Shown piece by piece: positions 11 to 13,974 of a stretch of 30,806 nucleotides of DNA (position 1 is the stretch's first letter; each line of letters starts with the position of its first letter). The translations under genes and the position numbers were made by a program. The stretch is from a virus (taxonomy: Duplodnaviria > Heunggongvirae > Uroviricota > Caudoviricetes): the IMG/VR virus record IMGVR_UViG_3300030438_000300. One strand, 5' to 3'. The notes beneath the pieces are model-generated. The model had not been told where the DNA came from and searched no databases. It saw only the letters and a program-made list of their open reading frames with translations.

Positions 11-715
11 TTATCCGATATCGCTTCGGGAAGTTGATAACAACTTCAATTCTGACTCAAGTTCATCAACTCTTTCAGTCAGTTTCTGGATATGGTGAAT
101 CAGTGGAACAACCAGACGTTCGTACATTACACCTTCGGCAACAAGGCCATTGCTGGAAATAGCTTCCCGTGCATCATCTTCGTTAGCTGATCGCCAGTGT
201 ACAAACTGAGGGGCAATTTCTCCTACTTCCTCGGCAATCAATCCGTAGAATCCCCAGTCACGCCTGTCATTTTCGCATTGTGACCTGTACCATACAGGGC
301 GCATCCTGAAAATGAGATCGGCGTGCTCTGAATCTATCGTCTCTACTGAATGTTTATAGCGGATAGACGATGTTGACCGCAGTACAGACGAAATTGCAGG
401 GTCAGGATTAAGATAAAGGTTTGCCGCCGCTGTAGTCGTGGCCAAATTCCATAAATAAAACGCTTCACGACCTGTCAGTGGATAAAAATCTCCGCCATAA
501 CGACCACTTTCCAGATCGTTCACTTCCACTTTGTTTTTCAGCTTATTATCAACTTCAGTTTTTGTGTATCTGGAGCTGATATCCTGCTTTGCACTGGTCA
601 TATCAGTCTGAAGCGTTGATACTTTACCGTTAATTGAGGAAATATCTTCCTTCGCTTTACTGACATCTCCCTTCAGCGTGGTGATGTCTCCCGGAATTAC
701 TGTCGATGTAGCCAT
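11..715 (-). CDS. Standalone protein with tail-fibre/tailspike C-terminal intramolecular chaperone-like domain (peptidase S74-like)
   Basis: 234-aa ORF with a GAGGGAG RBS about 6 nt upstream of the ATG. The N-terminal part is coiled-coil-like. The C-terminal part contains DWGFYGLIAEEVGEIAPQFV, which resembles the conserved G(F/L)IAQEV..P..V motif of endosialidase/tail-fibre chaperone domains. An in-frame TGA lies about 30 nt upstream, so this is not the open 3' end of a longer tail-fibre gene in this frame. Confidence 0.55.
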   Translation of the reverse strand: MATSTVIPGDITTLKGDVSKAKEDISSINGKVSTLQTDMTSAKQDISSRYTKTEVDNKLKNKVEVNDLESGRYGGDFYPLTGREAFYLWNLATTTAAANLYLNPDPAISSVLRSTSSIRYKHSVETIDSEHADLIFRMRPVWYRSQCENDRRDWGFYGLIAEEVGEIAPQFVHWRSANEDDAREAISSNGLVAEGVMYERLVVPLIHHIQKLTERVDELESELKLLSTSRSDIG

Positions 716-869
716 TTGTCTCCCTCACATCCAGCCACGAAGTTGATGTTCAACAACAACCGCGTATTCATCGAATATTGACGATTTTTTTGCATCATTA
801 ATGATGCGCACGTTGGTGATGCTGCCAACTTACTGATTTAGTGTATGATGGTGTTTTTGAGGTGCTCCA

Positions 870-1145
870 GTGGCTTCTGTTTCTATCAGCTGTCCCTCCT
901 GTTCAGCTACTGACGGGGTGGTGCGTAACGGCAAAAGCACCGCCGGACATCAGCGCTATCTCTGCTCTCACTGCCGTAAAACATGGCAACTGCAGTTCAC
1001 TTACACCGCTTCTCAACCCGGTACGCACCAGAAAATCATTGATATGGCCATGAATGGCGTTGGATGCCGGGCAACTGCACGCATTATGGGCGTTGGCCTC
1101 AACACGATTTTACGTCACTTAAAAAACTCAGGCCGCAGTCGGTAA
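870..1145 (+). CDS. insA: IS1 InsA (transposition inhibitor / N-terminal part of InsAB' transposase)
   Basis: 91-aa product [43 protein letters not shown]... matches IS1 InsA as recalled. Confidence 0.95.
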
Positions 1146-1567
1146 CCTCGCGCATACAGCCGGGCAGTGACGTCATCGTCTGCGCGGAAATGGACGAACA
1201 GTGGGGCTATGTCGGGGCTAAATCGCGCCAGCGCTGGCTGTTTTACGCGTATGACAGTCTCCGGAAGACGGTTGTTGCGCACGTATTCGGTGAACGCACG
1301 ATGGCGACGCTGGGGCGTCTTATGAGCCTGCTGTCACCCTTTGACGTGGTGATATGGATGACGGATGGCTGGCCGCTGTATGAATCCCGCCTGAAGGGAA
1401 AGCTGCACGTAATCAGCAAGCGATATACGCAGCGAATTGAGCGGCATAACCTGAATCTGAGGCAGCACCTGGCACGGCTGGGACGGAAGTCGCTGTCGTT
1501 CTCAAAATCGGTGGAGCTGCATGACAAAGTCATCGGGCATTATCTGAACATAAAACACTATCAATAA
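1064..1567 (+). CDS. insB: IS1 InsB reading frame (expressed as InsAB' transposase by -1 frameshift)
   Basis: 167-aa frame ...[28 protein letters not shown]... matches IS1 InsB. Slippery motif TTAAAAAACTC lies at about 1119-1129 (A6C at 1121-1127) within the insA/insB overlap. Confidence 0.9.
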
Positions 1568-1672
1568 GTTGGAGTCATTACCCGAGCGACATTGCTCCGT
1601 GTATTCACTCGTTGGAATGAATACACAGTGCAGTGTTTATTCTGTTATTTATGCCAAAAATAAAGGCCACTA

Positions 1673-2683: not shown

Positions 2684-2956
2684 TCATCTCGCCGTCAGTT
2701 GTTTTGATTTCCTGTAGCCTGCCGCGTAAATGGCTACGTTCGGAAGACAAGTTGAACCTTCATATTTTCTGGTCAACGTTGTCAGAGTTATCACTTCTGC
2801 TCTCATTGCTGGTTTGCGCTTGCATTGCAAGACCACTCGTGAAGGGGTTGGCCTGTGTAGCTTGTCGGAGCTGATCGCCTCCTGACTTTGCAGATTTGCG
2901 CGACGAGCTCTACGGCGAGAAGCTGCGGTGCCTTTAAATTCTGTTTTTCTGGACAT
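2684..2956 (-). CDS. N: N-type transcription antitermination protein (P22 gp24-like)
   Basis: 90-aa product starting MSRKTEFKGTAASRRRARRANLQ (arginine-rich motif) and ending NVAIYAAGYRKSKQLTAR, matching the recalled C-terminus of P22 N. GGGAGGA RBS 5 nt upstream. The ORF-track extension to 3028 lacks an RBS and runs into nutL. Confidence 0.8.
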   Translation of the reverse strand: MSRKTEFKGTAASRRRARRANLQSQEAISSDKLHRPTPSRVVLQCKRKPAMRAEVITLTTLTRKYEGSTCLPNVAIYAAGYRKSKQLTAR

Positions 2957-3055
2957 GGATTCCTCCCGAATAAACTTTGGCGATGCAATCTCGAAGCTCC
3001 TCCTGAGACGGTTGCTTCGGCATTGCATCCCACAGCTTATGTGGTTGGGTGATCT

Positions 3056-3100
3056 GGCTTTTCAGCCACGTAGTCGAGAGTCGACGTTGTTTAAAGAGCC
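3056..3100 (-). promoter_or_regulatory. nutL: Candidate nutL (boxA plus boxB-like hairpin)
   Basis: Minus strand reads GCTCTTTAAACAA (boxA-like, cf. consensus CGCTCTTTA), then a GTCGA-CTC-TCGAC hairpin, then GGCTGAAAAGCC (stem with purine-rich loop), located between the presumed pL and the N start. Confidence 0.5.
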
Positions 3101-3260
3101 TGCCAGTCTGTTCCATTTGGCTTCCAGCGTCCTGCTGACGATTAAATAGTACGATATGTACTTTACAAGATCAATACAATTTGTTGTAAGTTGGCGTGGT
3201 TTTTTATAACGCTTTGTATTTAATAGTGTTGTTTTTTAGCGTGGATGTATTGCCTCGGCG
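3101..3260 (-). promoter_or_regulatory. Candidate pL/OL operator-promoter region
   Basis: AT-rich non-coding region upstream of nutL/N. Contains motifs also present in the cI-cro intergenic region: TAACGCTTTGTATT (about 3207-3220) and, inverted, GTACTTTAC... (about 3152-3168). Confidence 0.4.
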
Positions 3261-3360
3261 ATGTAAGGAGAGATCAGAATTGCGTGGTTTAGTGGGTTGC
3301 ATCTATTTATTTTTCAATAAATACAATTGGTTATGTGTTTTTAGGTGGGGCGATCGTGAG

Positions 3361-3388
3361 GCAAAGAAAACCCGGCGCTGAGACCGGG
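3361..3388 (-). terminator. Intrinsic terminator immediately downstream of the RexB-like gene
   Basis: On the minus strand, stop TAA (3391-3389) is followed by hairpin CCCGGTCTCAGCGCCGGG (3388-3371) and TTTTCTTTG. Confidence 0.55.
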
Positions 3389-3880
3389 TTATTGTTGCTT
3401 GAGTTTTTCGTTATAAATCTGTTTCAGCTTTATTGGTATGAAAAAAGAGCATCCAAATGAAATTATGCTTAGCCAGCATATAATAAACTCAAGTGCCAGA
3501 CTCAGGTTGGTCACAGGCGGCTTGCTTGCTAAGATTTTACTGGTGTCTCCTGGTGGCAGCAGCATGTAGTAGAAGAATATTAAGCACAAGACTGTAAGAT
3601 AGAGGTAAAAAAGCATCATGTAACGAGAAAACCGAATTTCGAATTTCCTCTTAGTTGCATACTTTTCTGATCTTGATTTACCTTCTGTAAACGATGCTAC
3701 GTCTCCACTTGTGGTTATAACAAGTAACAGAAACCCTGTTAATATTGAAAATATATTTGCCACAAGTCCAAGCAACTCTTTGTTATATCTAACCTTATCA
3801 TGTAAATAATAAGTTAATACAAGAGAAAGGCAGATAAAAAAGATTATGGAAAAAATATAACTCCAATCTTTACCTCTCAT
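3389..3880 (-). CDS. RexB-position small integral membrane protein (4 predicted TM helices); candidate effector of a phage-exclusion system
   Basis: 163-aa ORF with four hydrophobic segments (YIFSIIFFICLSLVLTYYL, LLGLVANIFSILTGFLLLVITT, YMMLFYLYLTVLCLIFFYYMLL, LSLALEFIICWLSIISFGCSFFI). Strongly AT-rich. Same strand as cI and last gene of the cI-distal pair, as rexB is in lambda. No sequence similarity to lambda RexB recognised. Confidence 0.65.
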   Translation of the reverse strand: MRGKDWSYIFSIIFFICLSLVLTYYLHDKVRYNKELLGLVANIFSILTGFLLLVITTSGDVASFTEGKSRSEKYATKRKFEIRFSRYMMLFYLYLTVLCLIFFYYMLLPPGDTSKILASKPPVTNLSLALEFIICWLSIISFGCSFFIPIKLKQIYNEKLKQQ

Positions 3881-3917
3881 TCACACCTCCCCCTTTGGTT
3901 ATACGTACAACCCTCCA

Positions 3918-4769
3918 TTATAGTATGAAATCCTTGAAGTGCTCAAGAATTTCCTTAGCGTGTTCCGCTTTTATGGTGGTAGAGCCATACTTTCTTGTGT
4001 AATAATCTTTTTTTGTTTTGATTTCAGAGCTTTTGATCGCTTGGCCTTTTGATGTTGTGATGAAGAACTCTTCCGATAATTCATCAATGATCAGGCTTGG
4101 ATTTTTGTTCGCAATATTTAAGAGTTTTGGGTTATGTCTCTTGTCAAGAGTCAGAAGCCCATAGAAAGAGTTGTCATCATCTTGCTCTTTCTCAAATAAT
4201 CTTGACAAAGCTTCTTTAGCTTTTCCAGTGATACCTAATGATGTTGCTTTTGCCTCTTCTAGATCTTCTTTTGTTGTTTCAATACTTAGGCTGATGGAGC
4301 GTATTCCATCTTTTATTATCTTGCCAAGTGCATCTTTGTTGAGTTTCTCAGAAATATTCACATTGATATTCATGAGGCTAAATATTTTTTTTAACTTAGA
4401 TAAAGGATGAGTTCCTGATAGTTGAAAAATTGTTAGAATATTGCTTTCTGTTGCAAGTAAGAATATATGGCATTTATCATAATTATCTACATCCTGCAAA
4501 TCGTTATGGTCTCCATCTTTTGGAGTTACCGGGACCAAAGCTTTGGGCTCATAGAGTGTTATCCCAGCAAAGATTTGGTCATCGTTAACTATTAGACTTT
4601 TTATCCTTGCCCGAGTGTCGTTAGAGTACTCAAAGTCATAGTTTTGTTTGAAATTTTCGCATGTCTTCAAGACATCTACAAATGAGTATCCGTCATTACA
4701 ATCTACTTCAAATAGCGAAGTTTGTACTTTTTTGGGGAAATCTTTATTTTTTTCTTCCGAAAAATTCAT
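3918..4769 (-). CDS. RexA-position soluble protein; candidate sensor of a phage-exclusion system
   Basis: About 283-aa ORF from ATG 4769, with AAGGA RBS 6 nt upstream (the ORF track begins 2 codons earlier at TTG 4775). Lys/Asp/Glu-rich and AT-rich. No Walker, HNH or other catalytic motif recognised. Sits between cI and the 4-TM gene, as rexA does in lambda. Confidence 0.65.
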   Translation of the reverse strand: MNFSEEKNKDFPKKVQTSLFEVDCNDGYSFVDVLKTCENFKQNYDFEYSNDTRARIKSLIVNDDQIFAGITLYEPKALVPVTPKDGDHNDLQDVDNYDKCHIFLLATESNILTIFQLSGTHPLSKLKKIFSLMNINVNISEKLNKDALGKIIKDGIRSISLSIETTKEDLEEAKATSLGITGKAKEALSRLFEKEQDDDNSFYGLLTLDKRHNPKLLNIANKNPSLIIDELSEEFFITTSKGQAIKSSEIKTKKDYYTRKYGSTTIKAEHAKEILEHFKDFIL

Positions 4770-4868
4770 TGGCAATCCTTACTTTTTAATAAATGATTTT
4801 CAGTAAATTAATCAGTAAGTTGTTTAGCATAGGGTATGTGCGCTTTTGATAAATTACATGCAGTCACA

Positions 4869-5522
4869 TCACCCAAACGTCTCTTCAGGCCACTGACTAG
4901 CGATAACTTTCCCCACAACGGAACAACTCTCATTGCATGGGATCATTGGGTATTGTGGGTTTAGTGGCTGTAGAAACATCTGACCGCTATCCCTGATCAG
5001 TTTCTTGAAGGTAAACTCATCACCACCAAGTCTGGCTATACAGAAATCGCCTGGCTCAACAGCCTGCTCAGGGTCAACCAGAATTAACATCCCGTCAGGA
5101 AAGCTGGGCTTGGAACCTGTTGGTGCGGTCATTGAGTTACCTTCAACCTCAAGCCAGAATGCAGAGTCACTGGCTTTTTTGGTTGTGCTTACCAATCTCT
5201 CCGCATCGCCTTTGGTAAAGGTTCTGAGTTCTGGAGAGAACATCCCAGCCTGAACATGAGAAAAAACAGGGTACTCATATTGTTTTTTAACTGGGGCCGA
5301 TGAGTATTCGCCAACAGGTGAAAATGTCCCGTCGTGGTTGAATGATATGTTATCAATACCAAGGTATTTAAACACCACACCAATATCACTAAGAGATGGA
5401 TGACGAGATCCGCGCAACCAGTGTCCAATCCCACCCTGCGTCATACCTAGCTCTTCGGCTAACTTCTCTTGAGTTATGCCGAGCTCTTTCATTCTGGATC
5501 TAGCCAGTTCATACCATTTCAT
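4869..5522 (-). CDS. cI: CI-type prophage repressor (XRE HTH N-domain plus LexA/S24-like C-domain)
   Basis: The C-terminal ~130 aa ([27 protein letters not shown]...[15 protein letters not shown]) are near-identical to the lambda cI C-terminal domain as recalled. The N-terminal HTH ([38 protein letters not shown]) is different. Start chosen at the second Met (AGGA at 7-nt spacing); Met 5528 or the ORF-track start 5570 are alternatives. Confidence 0.9.
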
Positions 5523-5528
5523 TTTCAT

Positions 5529-5638
5529 GTCCTTATTATTACGCTTTGTACTGGAACCATCCATGCACAATGTGTATTTTTACTTGTATTCGTAAAGTAC
5601 ATATTGTATTTTTTATTCGTGTTTACTATGGAGGGCAT
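5529..5638. promoter_or_regulatory. Candidate OR operator region with divergent pRM/pR
   Basis: 110-bp AT-rich intergenic between divergent cI and cro. Contains TTACGCTTTGTACT (5539-5552) and GTAAAGTACATAT (5592-5604), both recurring upstream of N. Confidence 0.55.
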
Positions 5639-5854
5639 ATGAGCAACCTACGAAAATATCGAGAGTCACTGAATATCTCTCAAACAACACTTGCTAAGGC
5701 AGTTGGATGCACACAGGGAGCTATCGGACATTGGGAATCTGGTCGTCGCTTCCCAGACCTTAAAACATGCCGTGCTCTTGTTGCGTGCCTAAACAAGTTA
5801 GGCGCAAAAGTCAGTCTTGATGACGTGTTCCCGCCGGAACACAAAGCCGCTTAA
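5639..5854 (+). CDS. cro: Cro-like repressor (HTH XRE family)
   Basis: 71-aa product MSNLRKYRESLNISQTTLAKAVGCTQGAIGHWESGRRFP with GGAGGG RBS. Its recognition-helix region is paralogous to that of the adjacent cI (TQGGIGHW vs TQGAIGHW). Confidence 0.85.
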   Translation: MSNLRKYRESLNISQTTLAKAVGCTQGAIGHWESGRRFPDLKTCRALVACLNKLGAKVSLDDVFPPEHKAA

Positions 5855-5864
5855 TAAGCGGATC

Positions 5865-5909
5865 CGCTCTTTGTAACAACGGACATTCGTCCTACGTCGC
5901 TGAAAAGCG
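5865..5909 (+). promoter_or_regulatory. nutR: Candidate nutR (boxA plus boxB-like hairpin)
   Basis: CGCTCTTTGTAACAA (boxA-like) 11 nt after the cro stop, then a GGAC-ATTC-GTCC hairpin, then CGCTGAAAAGCG. Same architecture as the nutL candidate. Confidence 0.5.
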
Positions 5910-5995: not shown

Positions 5996-6292
5996 ATGGA
6001 AAGAACAAGTTACAGCAAACTATCACAGCGTGACGTTGATCGCGCAGAAACAGATTTACTTATCAATCTGTCAGCTATTACCCAGCGCGGTCTGGCAAAG
6101 ATGATTGGCTGTCATGAATCGAAGATAAGCAGAACGGATTGGAGATTTATTGCTTCGGTCTTGTGTGCTTTCGGAATGGCATCAGACATCAGTCCGATTA
6201 GCAGGGCTTTTAAGTATGCGCTTGATGGACTCACCAATAAAAAACGCCCGGCGGCAACCGAGCGTTCTGAACAAATCCAGATGGAGTTCTGA
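5996..6292 (+). CDS. cII: CII-type transcriptional activator (hybrid)
   Basis: 98 aa. C-terminal LTNKKRPAATERSEQIQMEF matches the lambda CII C-terminus as recalled; the N-terminal ~75 aa differ. Weak RBS. Confidence 0.8.
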   Translation: MERTSYSKLSQRDVDRAETDLLINLSAITQRGLAKMIGCHESKISRTDWRFIASVLCAFGMASDISPISRAFKYALDGLTNKKRPAATERSEQIQMEF

Positions 6293-13434: not shown

Positions 13435-13974
13435 ATGAACGCAAAAATCAGATACGGCCTGTCGGCTGCCGTTCTGGCACTGATTGCCGTCGGTGCGCCC
13501 GCGCCTGATATTCTCGACCAGTTTCTGGATGAAAAAGAAGGTAACCACACAACGACATACCGCGATGGGTCCGGCATCTGGACCATCTGTCGGGGTGCCA
13601 CGATAGTGGATGGAAAACCCGTTTTTCCCGGTATGAAACTGTCGAAGGAAAAATGCGACCAGGTCAACGCCATTGAGCGTGATAAGGCGCTGGCATGGGT
13701 GGAGCGCAATATTAAAGTACTACTGACCGAACCACAAAAAGCGGGTATAGCGTCATTCTGTCCCTATAACATTGGNNNNNNNNNNNNNNNNNNNNNNNNN
13801 NNNNNNNNNNNNNNNNNNNNNNNNNNNGGTGATCGTAAGGGCGCATGCGAGGCGATTCGCTGGTGGATAAAAGATGGTGGGCGCGATTGCCGCATACGTT
13901 CAAATAACTGCTATGGACAGGTTATTCGTCGTGACCAGGAAAGCGCATTAGCCTGTTGGGGGATAGAGCAGTGA
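13435..13974 (+). CDS. rrrD: SAR endolysin (lysozyme, GH24 family; RrrD-like), interrupted by an ambiguous-base run
   Basis: [56 protein letters not shown]... with N-terminal signal-anchor, matching DLP12 RrrD as recalled. Contains the 52-nt N run at 13776-13827; the frame is retained across it. Confidence 0.85.
13776..13827. other. Run of 52 ambiguous bases (N): sequencing/assembly gap or masking
   Basis: Literal n characters in the sequence, inside the endolysin ORF. Confidence 1.

What the first reader, a model, noticed from the sequence alone, without database searches (positions are those of the whole stretch)
5529..5638. cI and Cro share near-identical recognition-helix regions, and operator-like motifs recur at OR and OL
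The cI HTH ([18 protein letters not shown]) and Cro HTH (VGCTQGAIGHWESGRRFP) are clearly paralogous, as in the 434/P22 type, so both should read the same operators. Motifs ACGCTTTGTA and GTAAAGTACATAT occur in the cI-cro intergenic region and again, one inverted, at 3150-3220 upstream of N. I could not resolve individual operator boundaries or half-sites.
Basis: seen in the sequence. Interest (0 to 1): 0.4.

Follow-up and report, generated by a model that had tools for sequence, protein, structure and literature searches.

The report
Repressor operator sites of a lambdoid prophage
The repeated motifs are pieces of the six 17-bp repressor/Cro binding sites (three at OR, three at OL) of a common E. 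coli lambdoid prophage immunity type, the one carried by Shiga-toxin phage VT2-Sakai, so this is an ordinary genetic switch whose sites were already predicted.

Summary
Both motifs occur exactly where stated.

They are fragments of six 17-bp pseudo-palindromic operators with consensus A-A-R-T-A-C-A-N3-T-G-T-A-Y-T-T:
- OR3 5537-5553, OR2 5563-5579, OR1 5595-5611.
- OL1 3147-3163, OL2 3172-3188, OL3 3205-3221.

A de novo symmetric-motif search on the two regions alone returns exactly these six sites (16.6 bits against 11.1±0.6 in shuffles). Across 83 homologous loci, variation falls in the spacers and operator centres, not the half-sites. Phages with a different recognition helix use CAC-N5-GTG instead of TAC-N5-GTA.

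The inferred promoters sit as in lambda. OR1 and OL1 cover the -10 of PR and PL. OR3 covers the PRM -10. OR2 abuts the PRM -35.

cI and Cro are paralogous HTH_3 proteins (E=8e-11; recognition helix 7/8 identical). The cI C-terminal domain is about 134/136 identical to lambda cI.

The same six sites are annotated as putative operators in GenBank AP005153 and printed as VT2-Sakai operators in a 2023 paper. The OR segment occurs in 776 of 5426 complete E. coli genomes. I found no binding data for the cognate repressor.

The parts
4869..5528 (-). cI repressor gene (219 aa from ATG 5528; a second in-frame ATG lies at 5522). The recognition helix T30-R39 is coded at 5412-5441.
   Evidence: ORF. Pfam HTH_3 (E=1.9e-10) plus Peptidase_S24 (E=2.6e-28). 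Residues 84-219 are about 134/136 identical to lambda cI 101-236 (PDB 3bdn, 8gmu).
5639..5854 (+). cro gene (71 aa), an all-HTH_3 Cro. The recognition helix T25-E33 is coded at 5711-5737.
   Evidence: HTH_3 E=4.2e-12. BLASTP to the cI N-terminal domain gives E=8e-11. SD GGAGGG lies at 5630-5635.
5537..5553 (.). OR3, TATTACGCTTTGTACTG.
   Evidence: Recovered by the de novo motif search. PWM score 17.2 and leave-one-out rank 6 of 30,790. Positions 1-9 and 11-14 are invariant in 31 OR variants. It differs by 1 nt from the site annotated in AP005153 and VT2-Sakai.
5563..5579 (.). OR2, ATGCACAATGTGTATTT. It has the weakest consensus match, and its edge touches the PRM -35.
   Evidence: score 15.5. 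In 31 variants positions 1, 3-8 and 11-14 are invariant and position 2 changes in a single variant. Identical to the site annotated in AP005153 and printed for VT2-Sakai.
5595..5611 (.). OR1, AAGTACATATTGTATTT. It is the best consensus match and covers the PR spacer and the first 5 nt of the PR -10.
   Evidence: (score 20.5, rank 1). Identical to the annotated VT2-Sakai/AP005153 OR1.
5584..5612 (+). PR (inferred): -35 TTGTAT 5584-5589, 17-nt spacer, -10 TATTTT 5607-5612. The start is expected near 5619.
   Evidence: Relaxed hexamer scan. TTG of the -35 and the -10 are conserved (TATTTT, or TATTAT in the 683R2-type variants). The rival TTTACT/TATTGT pair is not conserved. It nearly coincides with the promoter annotated in AP005153. 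No transcript data.
5535..5563 (-). PRM (inferred): -35 TGGATG 5563-5558, 17-nt spacer, -10 AATAAT 5540-5535. The start is expected at about 5528, the A of the cI ATG, which would give a leaderless mRNA.
   Evidence: 8/12 match. Both hexamers are conserved across the 31 OR variants; the only change is one variant altered at the last base of the -35. The same placement is annotated in AP005153. The OR2 centre (5571) would lie at about -43.
3147..3163 (.). OL1, TAGTACGATATGTACTT. It covers the PL spacer and -10.
   Evidence: (score 19.0). Identical to the annotated VT2-Sakai/AP005153 OL1.
3172..3188 (.). OL2, CAATACAATTTGTTGTA. It overlaps the PL -35 by 3 nt.
   Evidence: (score 16.6). It differs by 1 nt from the annotated site.
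3205..3221 (.). OL3, TATAACGCTTTGTATTT.
   Evidence: (score 16.2). It differs by 1 nt from the annotated site.
3146..3174 (-). PL (inferred): -35 TTGATC 3174-3169, 17-nt spacer, -10 TACTAT 3151-3146. It reads leftward into N.
   Evidence: 8/12 match. TTGA of the -35 is conserved, and most variants read TTGACC or TTGACT. It coincides with hexamers annotated in AP005153.
2684..2956 (-). N antiterminator gene, the first gene of the PL operon.
   Evidence: Pfam N_peptide E=8e-32; translation.
3369..3390 (-). Terminator-like hairpin downstream of the leftward cI-orf285-orf163 unit, in the position of lambda tImm.
   Evidence: 8-pair stem, 5 GC pairs, then TTCTTT tail on the minus strand.

Best explanation
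This region is the immunity switch of a lambdoid prophage of the VT2-Sakai / Stx1-phi(Morioka) immunity type. The cI repressor and Cro carry almost the same recognition helix, TQG(G/A)IGHW. Both are inferred to bind, as dimers, six 17-bp pseudo-palindromic operators with half-site 5'-A-A-R-T-A-C-A; A5, C6, G12 and T13 are invariant.

The expected mechanism, step by step, is as follows.
- cI on OR1 blocks PR because the site covers the spacer and -10.
- cI on OL1 and OL2 blocks PL because they cover the -10, spacer and -35.
- cI on OR2, centred about 43 bp upstream of the cI start, is placed to contact RNA polymerase at the weak PRM -35 and activate cI synthesis, probably from a leaderless mRNA.
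- cI or Cro on OR3 covers the PRM -10 and shuts cI off.
- The C-terminal domain is nearly identical to lambda cI. RecA-stimulated self-cleavage, pairwise cooperativity and OL-OR looping (2.45 kb apart here) are therefore expected to work as in lambda.

Shown here: the sites, their statistical support, their conservation, their covariation with the recognition helix, and their positions relative to conserved promoter-like hexamers. Inferred: actual binding, the affinity order, activation, cooperativity and looping.
For: - Exact motif recurrence.
- The de novo symmetric motif search recovers six sites, 3 at OR and 3 at OL, at 16.6 bits against a null of 11.1±0.57.
- Leave-one-out PWM ranks are 1-8 of 30,790 positions.
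- In 31 distinct OR and 43 distinct OL variants from 83 loci, the half-site columns are almost entirely invariant (isolated changes in one or two variants). Variation sits at operator centres, outer positions and spacers. Fisher tests give OL p=0.0012 (variation present in more than 2 variants) and OR p=0.029 (any variation).
- The helix covaries with the half-site. The window type, 683R2, phage L and NM-3/epsilon34 have T[QKR]G..[GSC]H[WY] helices and TAC-N5-GTA sites. S107 and mEp213 have SR[LI][GA]NYE helices and CAC-N5-GTG sites. The 17-bp, three-site OR layout is the same in all, and the OL triple was recovered wherever OL was located.
- Promoter-like hexamers conserved across variants lie in lambda-like register with the sites.
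- cI and Cro are paralogous, and the cI CTD is about 134/136 identical to lambda.
- The same six sites were annotated independently as putative operators in AP005153. They are listed as VT2-Sakai operators in PMC10742460 Table S1 and found in NC_000902 at the expected places.
Against: - No binding, footprint or transcript-start data for the cognate proteins were found. The only EMSA in the held literature uses non-cognate lambda CI (KDapp 3.7-6.4 uM).
- The promoter hexamers match the consensus weakly (7-8 of 12), and the stock promoter scanner did not call them.
- Exact-palindrome enumeration alone was not significant after Bonferroni correction.
- The OR2 and OL3 left halves deviate from the consensus (CAC and AAC).
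- OR2-OR1 spacing (32 bp here, 31-35 in relatives) differs from lambda's 24 bp (the lambda value is from my own knowledge), so lambda-like OR1-OR2 cooperativity is not assured.
Confidence: 0.9

Rival explanations
1. The recognised unit is shorter than 17 bp: a 13-15-bp core (A)TAC-N5-GTA(T). The outermost positions would be promoter context rather than repressor contacts.
For: Positions 1 and 17 vary between sites and between homologues. The epsilon34 GenBank record annotates 13-bp 'potential repressor-binding sites' for the sister immunity type.
Against: Position 2/16 is A/T in 11 of 12 symmetrised half-sites and changes in only one or two variants, which argues for at least 15 bp. By alignment, lambda Gln44, which contacts A2 of a 17-bp site, is retained as Gln31 (alignment plus my own knowledge of the lambda structure).
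Confidence: 0.2
2. Only some of the six sites are functional. For example OR2 or OL3 could be decayed relics, as phage 933W has only two OL sites.
For: OR2 (15.5) and OL3 (16.2) have the lowest PWM scores and non-consensus left halves. PMC10742460 states that 933W has only five operator sites.
Against: Nearly all OR2 half-site positions are invariant in 31 variants, and its distance to OR3 and the PRM -35 is fixed at 26 bp in 83 of 83 loci. The right half of OL3 is invariant in 43 variants. Three sites recur at OR in NM-3, S107, phage L and mEp213, and at OL in NM-3, S107 and phage L.
Confidence: 0.1
3. The shared strings only reflect common ancestry or duplication of the PR and PL promoter regions, or are chance AT-rich similarity. 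They would have no role in repressor binding.
For: The 13-mer includes 3 nt of promoter spacer. OR1/PR and OL1/PL have the same layout, so promoter homology contributes to that repeat. The regions are AT-rich.
Against: The shuffles preserve dinucleotide composition and never approach the observed motif information. The ACGCTTTGTA pair lies in O3 sites that are not in equivalent promoter positions: OR3 is on the PRM -10, while OL3 is upstream of PL. The half-site changes together with the recognition helix in other phages.
Confidence: 0.03

Closest known systems
Immunity region of Stx phages VT2-Sakai (NC_000902), Stx1 converting phage and Stx2 phage II of E. coli O157:H7 Morioka V526 (AP005153/AP005154), and Stx2 phage 1717, YYZ-2008, 2851 and the PA series
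   Same: cI is at least 99% identical in 58 phage records, and Cro is 100% identical in the records listed by name. OR1, OR2 and OL1 are identical, and OR3, OL2 and OL3 differ by 1 nt each from the sites annotated or published for these phages. Operator order and spacing are the same.
   Different: The cargo between cI and OL differs: orf285 and orf163 here against other ORFs there, and only 51% of 2900-5900 aligns. The phages whose whole 2900-5900 region is nearest to the window are 2G7b and PhiR11_1 (99.6%).
Bacteriophage lambda cI / OR-OL switch
   Same: The cI C-terminal domain is about 134/136 identical, including the Ala-Gly cleavage site and the Ser/Lys dyad context. The NTD aligns with lambda helices 1-5. 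Gln33/Gln44 are retained as Gln20/Gln31, and the acidic helix-2 residues are retained as Glu21/Glu25. Other shared features are 17-bp operators with A2, A5 and C6, a 3+3 site layout, OR2 abutting the PRM -35, a predicted leaderless cI mRNA, and an OL-OR distance of about 2.4 kb.
   Different: The half-site is AARTACA, not TATCACC. The NTD is only about 35-40% identical and lacks the first ~13 residues, including the N-terminal arm. Cro is an HTH_3 paralogue of the repressor, not the lambda alpha+beta Cro. Centre-to-centre spacings are 26/32 bp (OR) and 25/33 bp (OL), not about 23-24 bp (lambda values are from my own knowledge).
Salmonella phage L and epsilon34/NM-3 immC regions (P22-like phages)
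   Same: Phage L Cro is 69% identical and has helix TQGAIGHY. Phage L has the same operator family (for example OR1 TAGTACGAAATGTATTA) with OR spacing 26/34. epsilon34/NM-3 sites are TAC-N5-GTA with spacing 26/33 and 25/30.
   Different: The host and phage backbone differ. NM-3 cI is 69% identical overall, with helix TKGAVSHW. Individual site sequences differ. Cross-immunity is untested.
Phage 434 and P22 repressor/Cro pairs
   Same: Cro and the repressor NTD are homologous all-alpha HTH domains with near-identical recognition helices reading one operator set.
   Different: Sequence similarity is weak: the P22 C2 NTD is only a marginal match to this Cro (E about 0.009), and the search returned no 434 chain. 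The operator length and sequence are different (434: 14 bp, ACAA-N6-TTGT; P22: 18 bp; from my own knowledge). The repressor CTD here is lambda's.

Membership tests
Lambdoid cI/Cro immunity switch with tripartite OR and OL | Divergently transcribed repressor and cro genes flanking a short regulatory region, with N to the left and cII-O-P to the right | tested here: met
   cI 4869-5528 (-), cro 5639-5854 (+), a 110-bp intergenic region, N 2684-2956 (-), cII 5996-6292, then O and P.
Lambdoid cI/Cro immunity switch with tripartite OR and OL | Repressor made of an N-terminal HTH plus a C-terminal LexA-like S24 autopeptidase/oligomerisation domain | tested here: met
   Pfam HTH_3 and Peptidase_S24. 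The CTD is about 134/136 identical to lambda cI, with VQAGMF and GNSM...FKKL retained.
Lambdoid cI/Cro immunity switch with tripartite OR and OL | Three related pseudo-palindromic operators at OR and three at OL, overlapping PR/PRM and PL | tested here: met
   De novo motif, leave-one-out ranks, conservation and hexamer positions.
Lambdoid cI/Cro immunity switch with tripartite OR and OL | Sequence-specific binding of both repressor and Cro to those sites, with differential affinity | not testable with these tools
   No cognate binding data were found in the held literature. Footprinting or EMSA is needed.
Lambdoid cI/Cro immunity switch with tripartite OR and OL | Positive autoregulation of PRM by OR2-bound repressor | not testable with these tools
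   Only the geometry is consistent: the OR2 centre is at about -43, the -35 (TGGATG) is weak, and acidic helix-2 residues Glu21/Glu25 align with lambda Glu34/Asp38 (the role of the lambda residues is from my own knowledge).
VT2-Sakai / Stx1-phi(Morioka) immunity specificity group | Near-identical cI and Cro | tested here: met
   cI is at least 99% identical in 58 phage records and Cro is at least 99% identical in 59, including 1717, YYZ-2008, 2851 and the PA series. The VT2-Sakai locus has the same layout.
VT2-Sakai / Stx1-phi(Morioka) immunity specificity group | Same operator sequences | tested here: met
   Three of six sites are identical and three differ by 1 nt, at positions that also vary among homologues (pos 10, 15 and 3).
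VT2-Sakai / Stx1-phi(Morioka) immunity specificity group | Cross-immunity in vivo | not testable with these tools
   Requires plating tests on lysogens.
Lambda immunity (imm-lambda) | Lambda operator consensus TATCACCGC... and the lambda NTD | tested here: not met
   The half-site here is AARTACA. The NTD aligns to lambda at low identity and lacks the arm. HK106, which does carry lambda-like PR/PRM, matches only the CTD-containing part of this cI.
434/P22-type Cro (HTH paralogue of its own repressor) | Cro is an HTH_3 domain significantly similar to the NTD of its cognate repressor | tested here: met
   HTH_3 E=4.2e-12. BLASTP against its own cI gives E=8e-11. The recognition helix is 7/8 identical.
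H-19B immunity | H-19B cI/cro sequences and OR | tested here: not met
   H-19B cI matches only in the S24 core (36% over 44 aa). Its Cro is unrelated and its OR sequence is different.

The most novel reading that the evidence does not exclude
This widespread immunity type joins an almost unchanged lambda cooperativity/looping domain to a different DNA-binding domain. Its operators are spaced 26/32 bp at OR and 25/33 bp at OL, and a natural T-run polymorphism makes OR2-OR1 range from 31 to 35 bp. The pairing rules of the switch may therefore differ from lambda. Examples would be tight OR2-OR3 and OL1-OL2 pairs, three-turn OR1-OR2 cooperativity that tolerates phase changes, or no OR1-OR2 cooperativity at all. 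Mixed oligomers with lambda CI could also form in double lysogens and couple two heteroimmune prophages.
Probability: 0.2. Interest if true: 0.4.

Novelty: already known. Interest (0 to 1): 0.12.

Why it matters
The result mainly confirms an existing annotation. It fixes the operator and promoter map for an immunity type found in about 14% of complete E. coli genomes and in several Shiga-toxin phages, including VT2-Sakai, where repressor occupancy controls prophage induction and Stx2 release.

The practical gain is a validated PWM and a set of coordinates. These can be used to design footprinting, reporter or induction experiments, and to predict homoimmunity among prophages.

The lambda-identical C-terminal domain on non-lambda spacings is a modest natural experiment on CI cooperativity. 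Nothing here would surprise a specialist.

Tried and rejected
- **Is this the H-19B immunity, whose operators were mapped experimentally?** No. H-19B cI, cro and OR are unrelated.
- **Exact palindrome enumeration** (k-mer, gap, reverse complement). The top patterns, TAC-N5-GTA and ACA-N3-TGT, point to the right register. They are not significant after Bonferroni correction (0.31 and 0.49), so I replaced this with PWM and de novo tests (then 24 and 43).
- **The stock promoter scan** did not call PR, PRM or PL at its 9/12 threshold. A relaxed scan plus conservation was used instead. The better-scoring PR alternative TTTACT-17-TATTGT was rejected because its -35 is not conserved.
- **HK106/HK542 as divergent relatives.** They carry lambda-like PR/PRM, and only the region of their cI that contains the CTD matches this cI, so they say nothing about these operators.
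- **A seventh PWM hit at 3319-3335 as an extra operator.** Rejected. C6 is mutated in several homoimmune variants, and the surrounding block is 89% identical in the heteroimmune H-19B.
- **Literature.** Full-text searches for the operator strings found nothing relevant in main texts. Sato et al. 2003 (PMC161576) is not held. Fattah et al. 2000 is known only as a citation. One search was uninformative.
- **Rfam scan of the whole window:** no family matched.
- **PADLOC and Pfam on the two cargo genes between cI and OL:** no hits.
- **The first de novo runs on phage L and mEp213** used wrong OL or OR windows and gave noise. A PWM scan then located their sites.

Full report
**Context.** The window is a lambdoid prophage. 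Reading left to right around the finding, the genes are:
- ral (1673-1873, -) and sieB (2087-2668, +);
- N (2684-2956, -);
- two unassigned leftward genes, 3389-3880 and 3918-4775;
- cI (4869-5528, -) and cro (5639-5854, +);
- cII (5996-6292), then O and P, then late genes.

The finding's coordinates, 5529-5638, are exactly the 110-bp cI-cro intergenic region.

**Checking the observation.** Both peptide strings are present as quoted.
- cI and Cro both match Pfam HTH_3.
- They align at 35% identity over 62 residues, E=8e-11 for the single comparison.
- The recognition helices, TQGGIGHW and TQGAIGHW, are 7/8 identical.
- ACGCTTTGTA occurs exactly twice in 30.8 kb, at 3209-3218 and 5541-5550.
- GTAAAGTACATAT occurs exactly twice, at 5592-5604 (+) and 3154-3166 (-), with no further match at up to 2 mismatches.

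**Resolving the sites.** GenBank AP005153 (Stx1 converting phage of O157:H7 Morioka V526) shares this immunity region. It annotates three 'putative operator' 17-mers on each side. Mapped to the window, they are:

| Site | Coordinates | Sequence |
|---|---|---|
| OL1 | 3147-3163 | TAGTACGATATGTACTT |
| OL2 | 3172-3188 | CAATACAATTTGTTGTA |
| OL3 | 3205-3221 | TATAACGCTTTGTATTT |
| OR3 | 5537-5553 | TATTACGCTTTGTACTG |
| OR2 | 5563-5579 | ATGCACAATGTGTATTT |
| OR1 | 5595-5611 | AAGTACATATTGTATTT |

I tested these sites without relying on the annotation.
- A symmetric 17-mer motif search, seeded from every position of 3117-3260 and 5529-5638 only, converged on exactly these six sites. The information content was 16.6 bits. 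One hundred dinucleotide-preserving shuffles gave 11.1±0.57 (maximum 12.8).
- In leave-one-out PWM scans, each omitted site ranked 1st to 8th of 30,790 window positions, essentially just behind the five training sites.
- The symmetrised matrix has A5, C6, G12 and T13 invariant, and A2/T16 in 11 of 12 half-sites. The consensus is A-A-R-T-A-C-A-N3-T-G-T-A-Y-T-T.

The 13-mer is 3 nt of promoter spacer plus positions 1-10 of OR1 and of the inverted OL1.

**Comparative evidence within the immunity type.** An IMG/VR scan with cI returned 80 loci at 97-100% protein identity. With three phage records, these gave 31 distinct OR and 43 distinct OL sequences.
- At OR, operator positions 3-8 and 12-14 never vary, and position 2 changes in a single variant at OR2. 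Changes fall at positions 1, 9-11, 15 and 17, in the OR2-OR1 spacer, and downstream of OR1. Variable columns are 11 of 51 inside operators and 26 of 63 outside, p=0.029.
- At OL, variation present in more than two variants affects 7 of 51 operator columns against 24 of 56 outside, p=0.0012.

**Comparative evidence between immunity types.** The half-site tracks the recognition helix.
- 683R2 has the same helix and the same sites with changed centres.
- Phage L (Cro 69% identical, helix TQGAIGHY) and NM-3/epsilon34 (TKGAVSHW and TRGAVCHY) keep TAC-N5-GTA.
- S107 and mEp213, whose cI and Cro both carry SR[LI][GA]NYE, have CAC-N5-GTG in the same 17-bp frame.

The three-site OR layout is the same in all of these, and an OL triple was recovered in NM-3, S107, 683R2 and phage L. 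In each phage, the Cro helix resembles its own repressor's helix more than it resembles other Cro proteins.

**Promoters and mechanism.** These are inferred from sequence and conservation; no transcript data exist.
- PR is TTGTAT (5584-5589), 17 nt, TATTTT (5607-5612). TTG and the -10 are conserved; the 683R2-type variants read TATTAT. A slightly better-scoring alternative is not conserved.
- PL is TTGATC (3174-3169), 17 nt, TACTAT (3151-3146). Most variants read TTGACC or TTGACT.
- PRM is TGGATG (5563-5558), 17 nt, AATAAT (5540-5535). It is conserved across the variants apart from one that changes the last base of the -35.
- The PRM start would fall at about 5528, the A of the cI ATG. That implies a leaderless mRNA as in lambda.

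OR1 and OL1 cover the spacer and -10 of PR and PL. OL2 overlaps the PL -35. OR3 overlaps the PRM -10. OR2 abuts the PRM -35 with its centre at about -43. This is the lambda arrangement (the comparison with lambda rests on my own knowledge), and it predicts the classical bistable switch.

**The repressor is a mosaic.** Residues 84-219 are about 134/136 identical to lambda cI 101-236. This is judged from alignments to PDB 3bdn and 8gmu, which themselves carry engineered substitutions. The N-terminal domain aligns to lambda from residue 24 at low identity and lacks the N-terminal arm.
- By that alignment, lambda Gln33/Gln44 correspond to Gln20/Gln31.
- Lambda Glu34/Asp38 correspond to Glu21/Glu25.
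- Lambda Ser45 corresponds to Gly32.

RecA-dependent cleavage, dimer-dimer cooperativity and octamer-mediated OL-OR looping are therefore expected to be lambda-like; this is inference. OL1-OR1 is 2.45 kb here and 0.88-2.45 kb in homologues.

The spacings differ from lambda (lambda values are from my own knowledge).
- OR3-OR2 is 26 bp in 83 of 83 loci.
- OR2-OR1 is 32 bp here. Among the loci it is 31 bp (3 loci), 32 (61), 33 (16), 34 (1) and 35 (2), through a T-run polymorphism.
- OL1-OL2 is 25 bp and OL2-OL3 is 33 bp.
- The long and short pattern recurs in NM-3/epsilon34 (26/33 and 25/30) and in phage L (26/34 and 25/30).

**What is already known.** The same six sites are annotated as putative operators in AP005153. 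They are printed as the six operators of VT2-Sakai in Table S1 of Sedhom and Solomon 2023 (PMC10742460). I located them in NC_000902 between cI and cro and upstream of N.
- Three sites are identical to the window's, and three differ by one base each.
- That paper measured only non-cognate lambda CI binding, with KDapp 3.7-6.4 uM.
- Its predecessor cites Fattah et al. 2000 on the immunity regions of Stx phages. I could not read that paper or Sato et al. 2003.
- I found no footprint or EMSA with the cognate repressor.
- The 221-bp segment spanning OR (5480-5700) is present in 776 of 5426 complete E. coli genomes.
- The whole 2900-5900 region is 99.6% identical in phages 2G7b and PhiR11_1.
- H-19B, whose operators were mapped experimentally, has an unrelated immunity region.

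**Verdict.** The feature is the ordinary, previously predicted OR/OL operator set of the VT2-Sakai immunity type. The residual interest is modest: the cognate protein-DNA interaction appears not to have been measured, and a lambda-identical cooperativity domain works here on non-lambda spacings.

Noticed in passing
window 4869-5279 (cI residues 84-219): The cI C-terminal domain is about 134/136 identical to lambda cI 101-236, while the N-terminal DNA-binding domain is only distantly lambda-like and lacks the N-terminal arm. This is a natural domain mosaic, and it raises the possibility of mixed oligomers with lambda CI in double lysogens.
   Followed up: partly
window 3260-3389 (includes 3319-3335): A conserved block lies between OL3 and the terminator. 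It is 89% identical in the heteroimmune phage H-19B and absent from 683R2-type homoimmune phages. It carries an SD-like AAGGAGAG (3265-3272), then a TTG at 3280 opening a 33-codon ORF (MRGLVGCIYLFFNKYNWLCVFRWGDREAKKTRR) that is kept in H-19B. Some variants have a 7-nt indel near its 3' end. It also holds the 7th-best operator-PWM hit, AAATACAATTGGTTATG, which is therefore probably not an operator. There is no Rfam match.
   Followed up: partly
window 5575-5583 and homologous loci L008-L087: A T-run between OR2 and the PR -35 varies from 4 to 8 T among homoimmune phages. OR2-OR1 centre spacing therefore ranges from 31 to 35 bp, whereas OR3-OR2 is fixed at 26 bp in all 83 loci.
   Followed up: yes
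window 3147-3221 versus 5537-5611: OR1 matches OL1 best when inverted (14/17 against 11/17 direct), as expected for mirror-image operator arrays. OR3 matches OL3 in direct orientation (14/17 against 7/17 inverted), including the asymmetric centre GCTTT. The two arrays are therefore not a simple inverted duplication.
   Followed up: yes
window 3389-3880 (-) and 3918-4775 (-): Two cargo genes sit in the rex position between cI and OL: a 163-aa protein rich in hydrophobic residues and a 285-aa protein. Neither has a Pfam or PADLOC match. This slot is variable, and the OL1-OR1 distance ranges from 0.88 to 2.45 kb among homoimmune phages.
   Followed up: partly
window 5520-5535: cI has two in-frame ATGs (5528 and 5522). 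An SD-like AAGGA is correctly spaced only for the second. The predicted PRM start coincides with the first. PRM transcripts may therefore be leaderless, while longer transcripts use the SD. The 683R2 record annotates the second ATG.
   Followed up: partly
window 11-1600: An IS1 copy (InsA 870-1145, and an IS1 transposase ORF at 1064-1567) lies immediately left of ral. Beyond it is a leftward ORF with a tail-fibre chaperone (Peptidase_S74) domain (11-715). This suggests an IS1-associated rearrangement or deletion of the usual int-xis-recombination region.
   Followed up: partly
window 13776-13827: A run of 52 N interrupts the sequence, either a masked stretch or an assembly gap.
   Followed up: no
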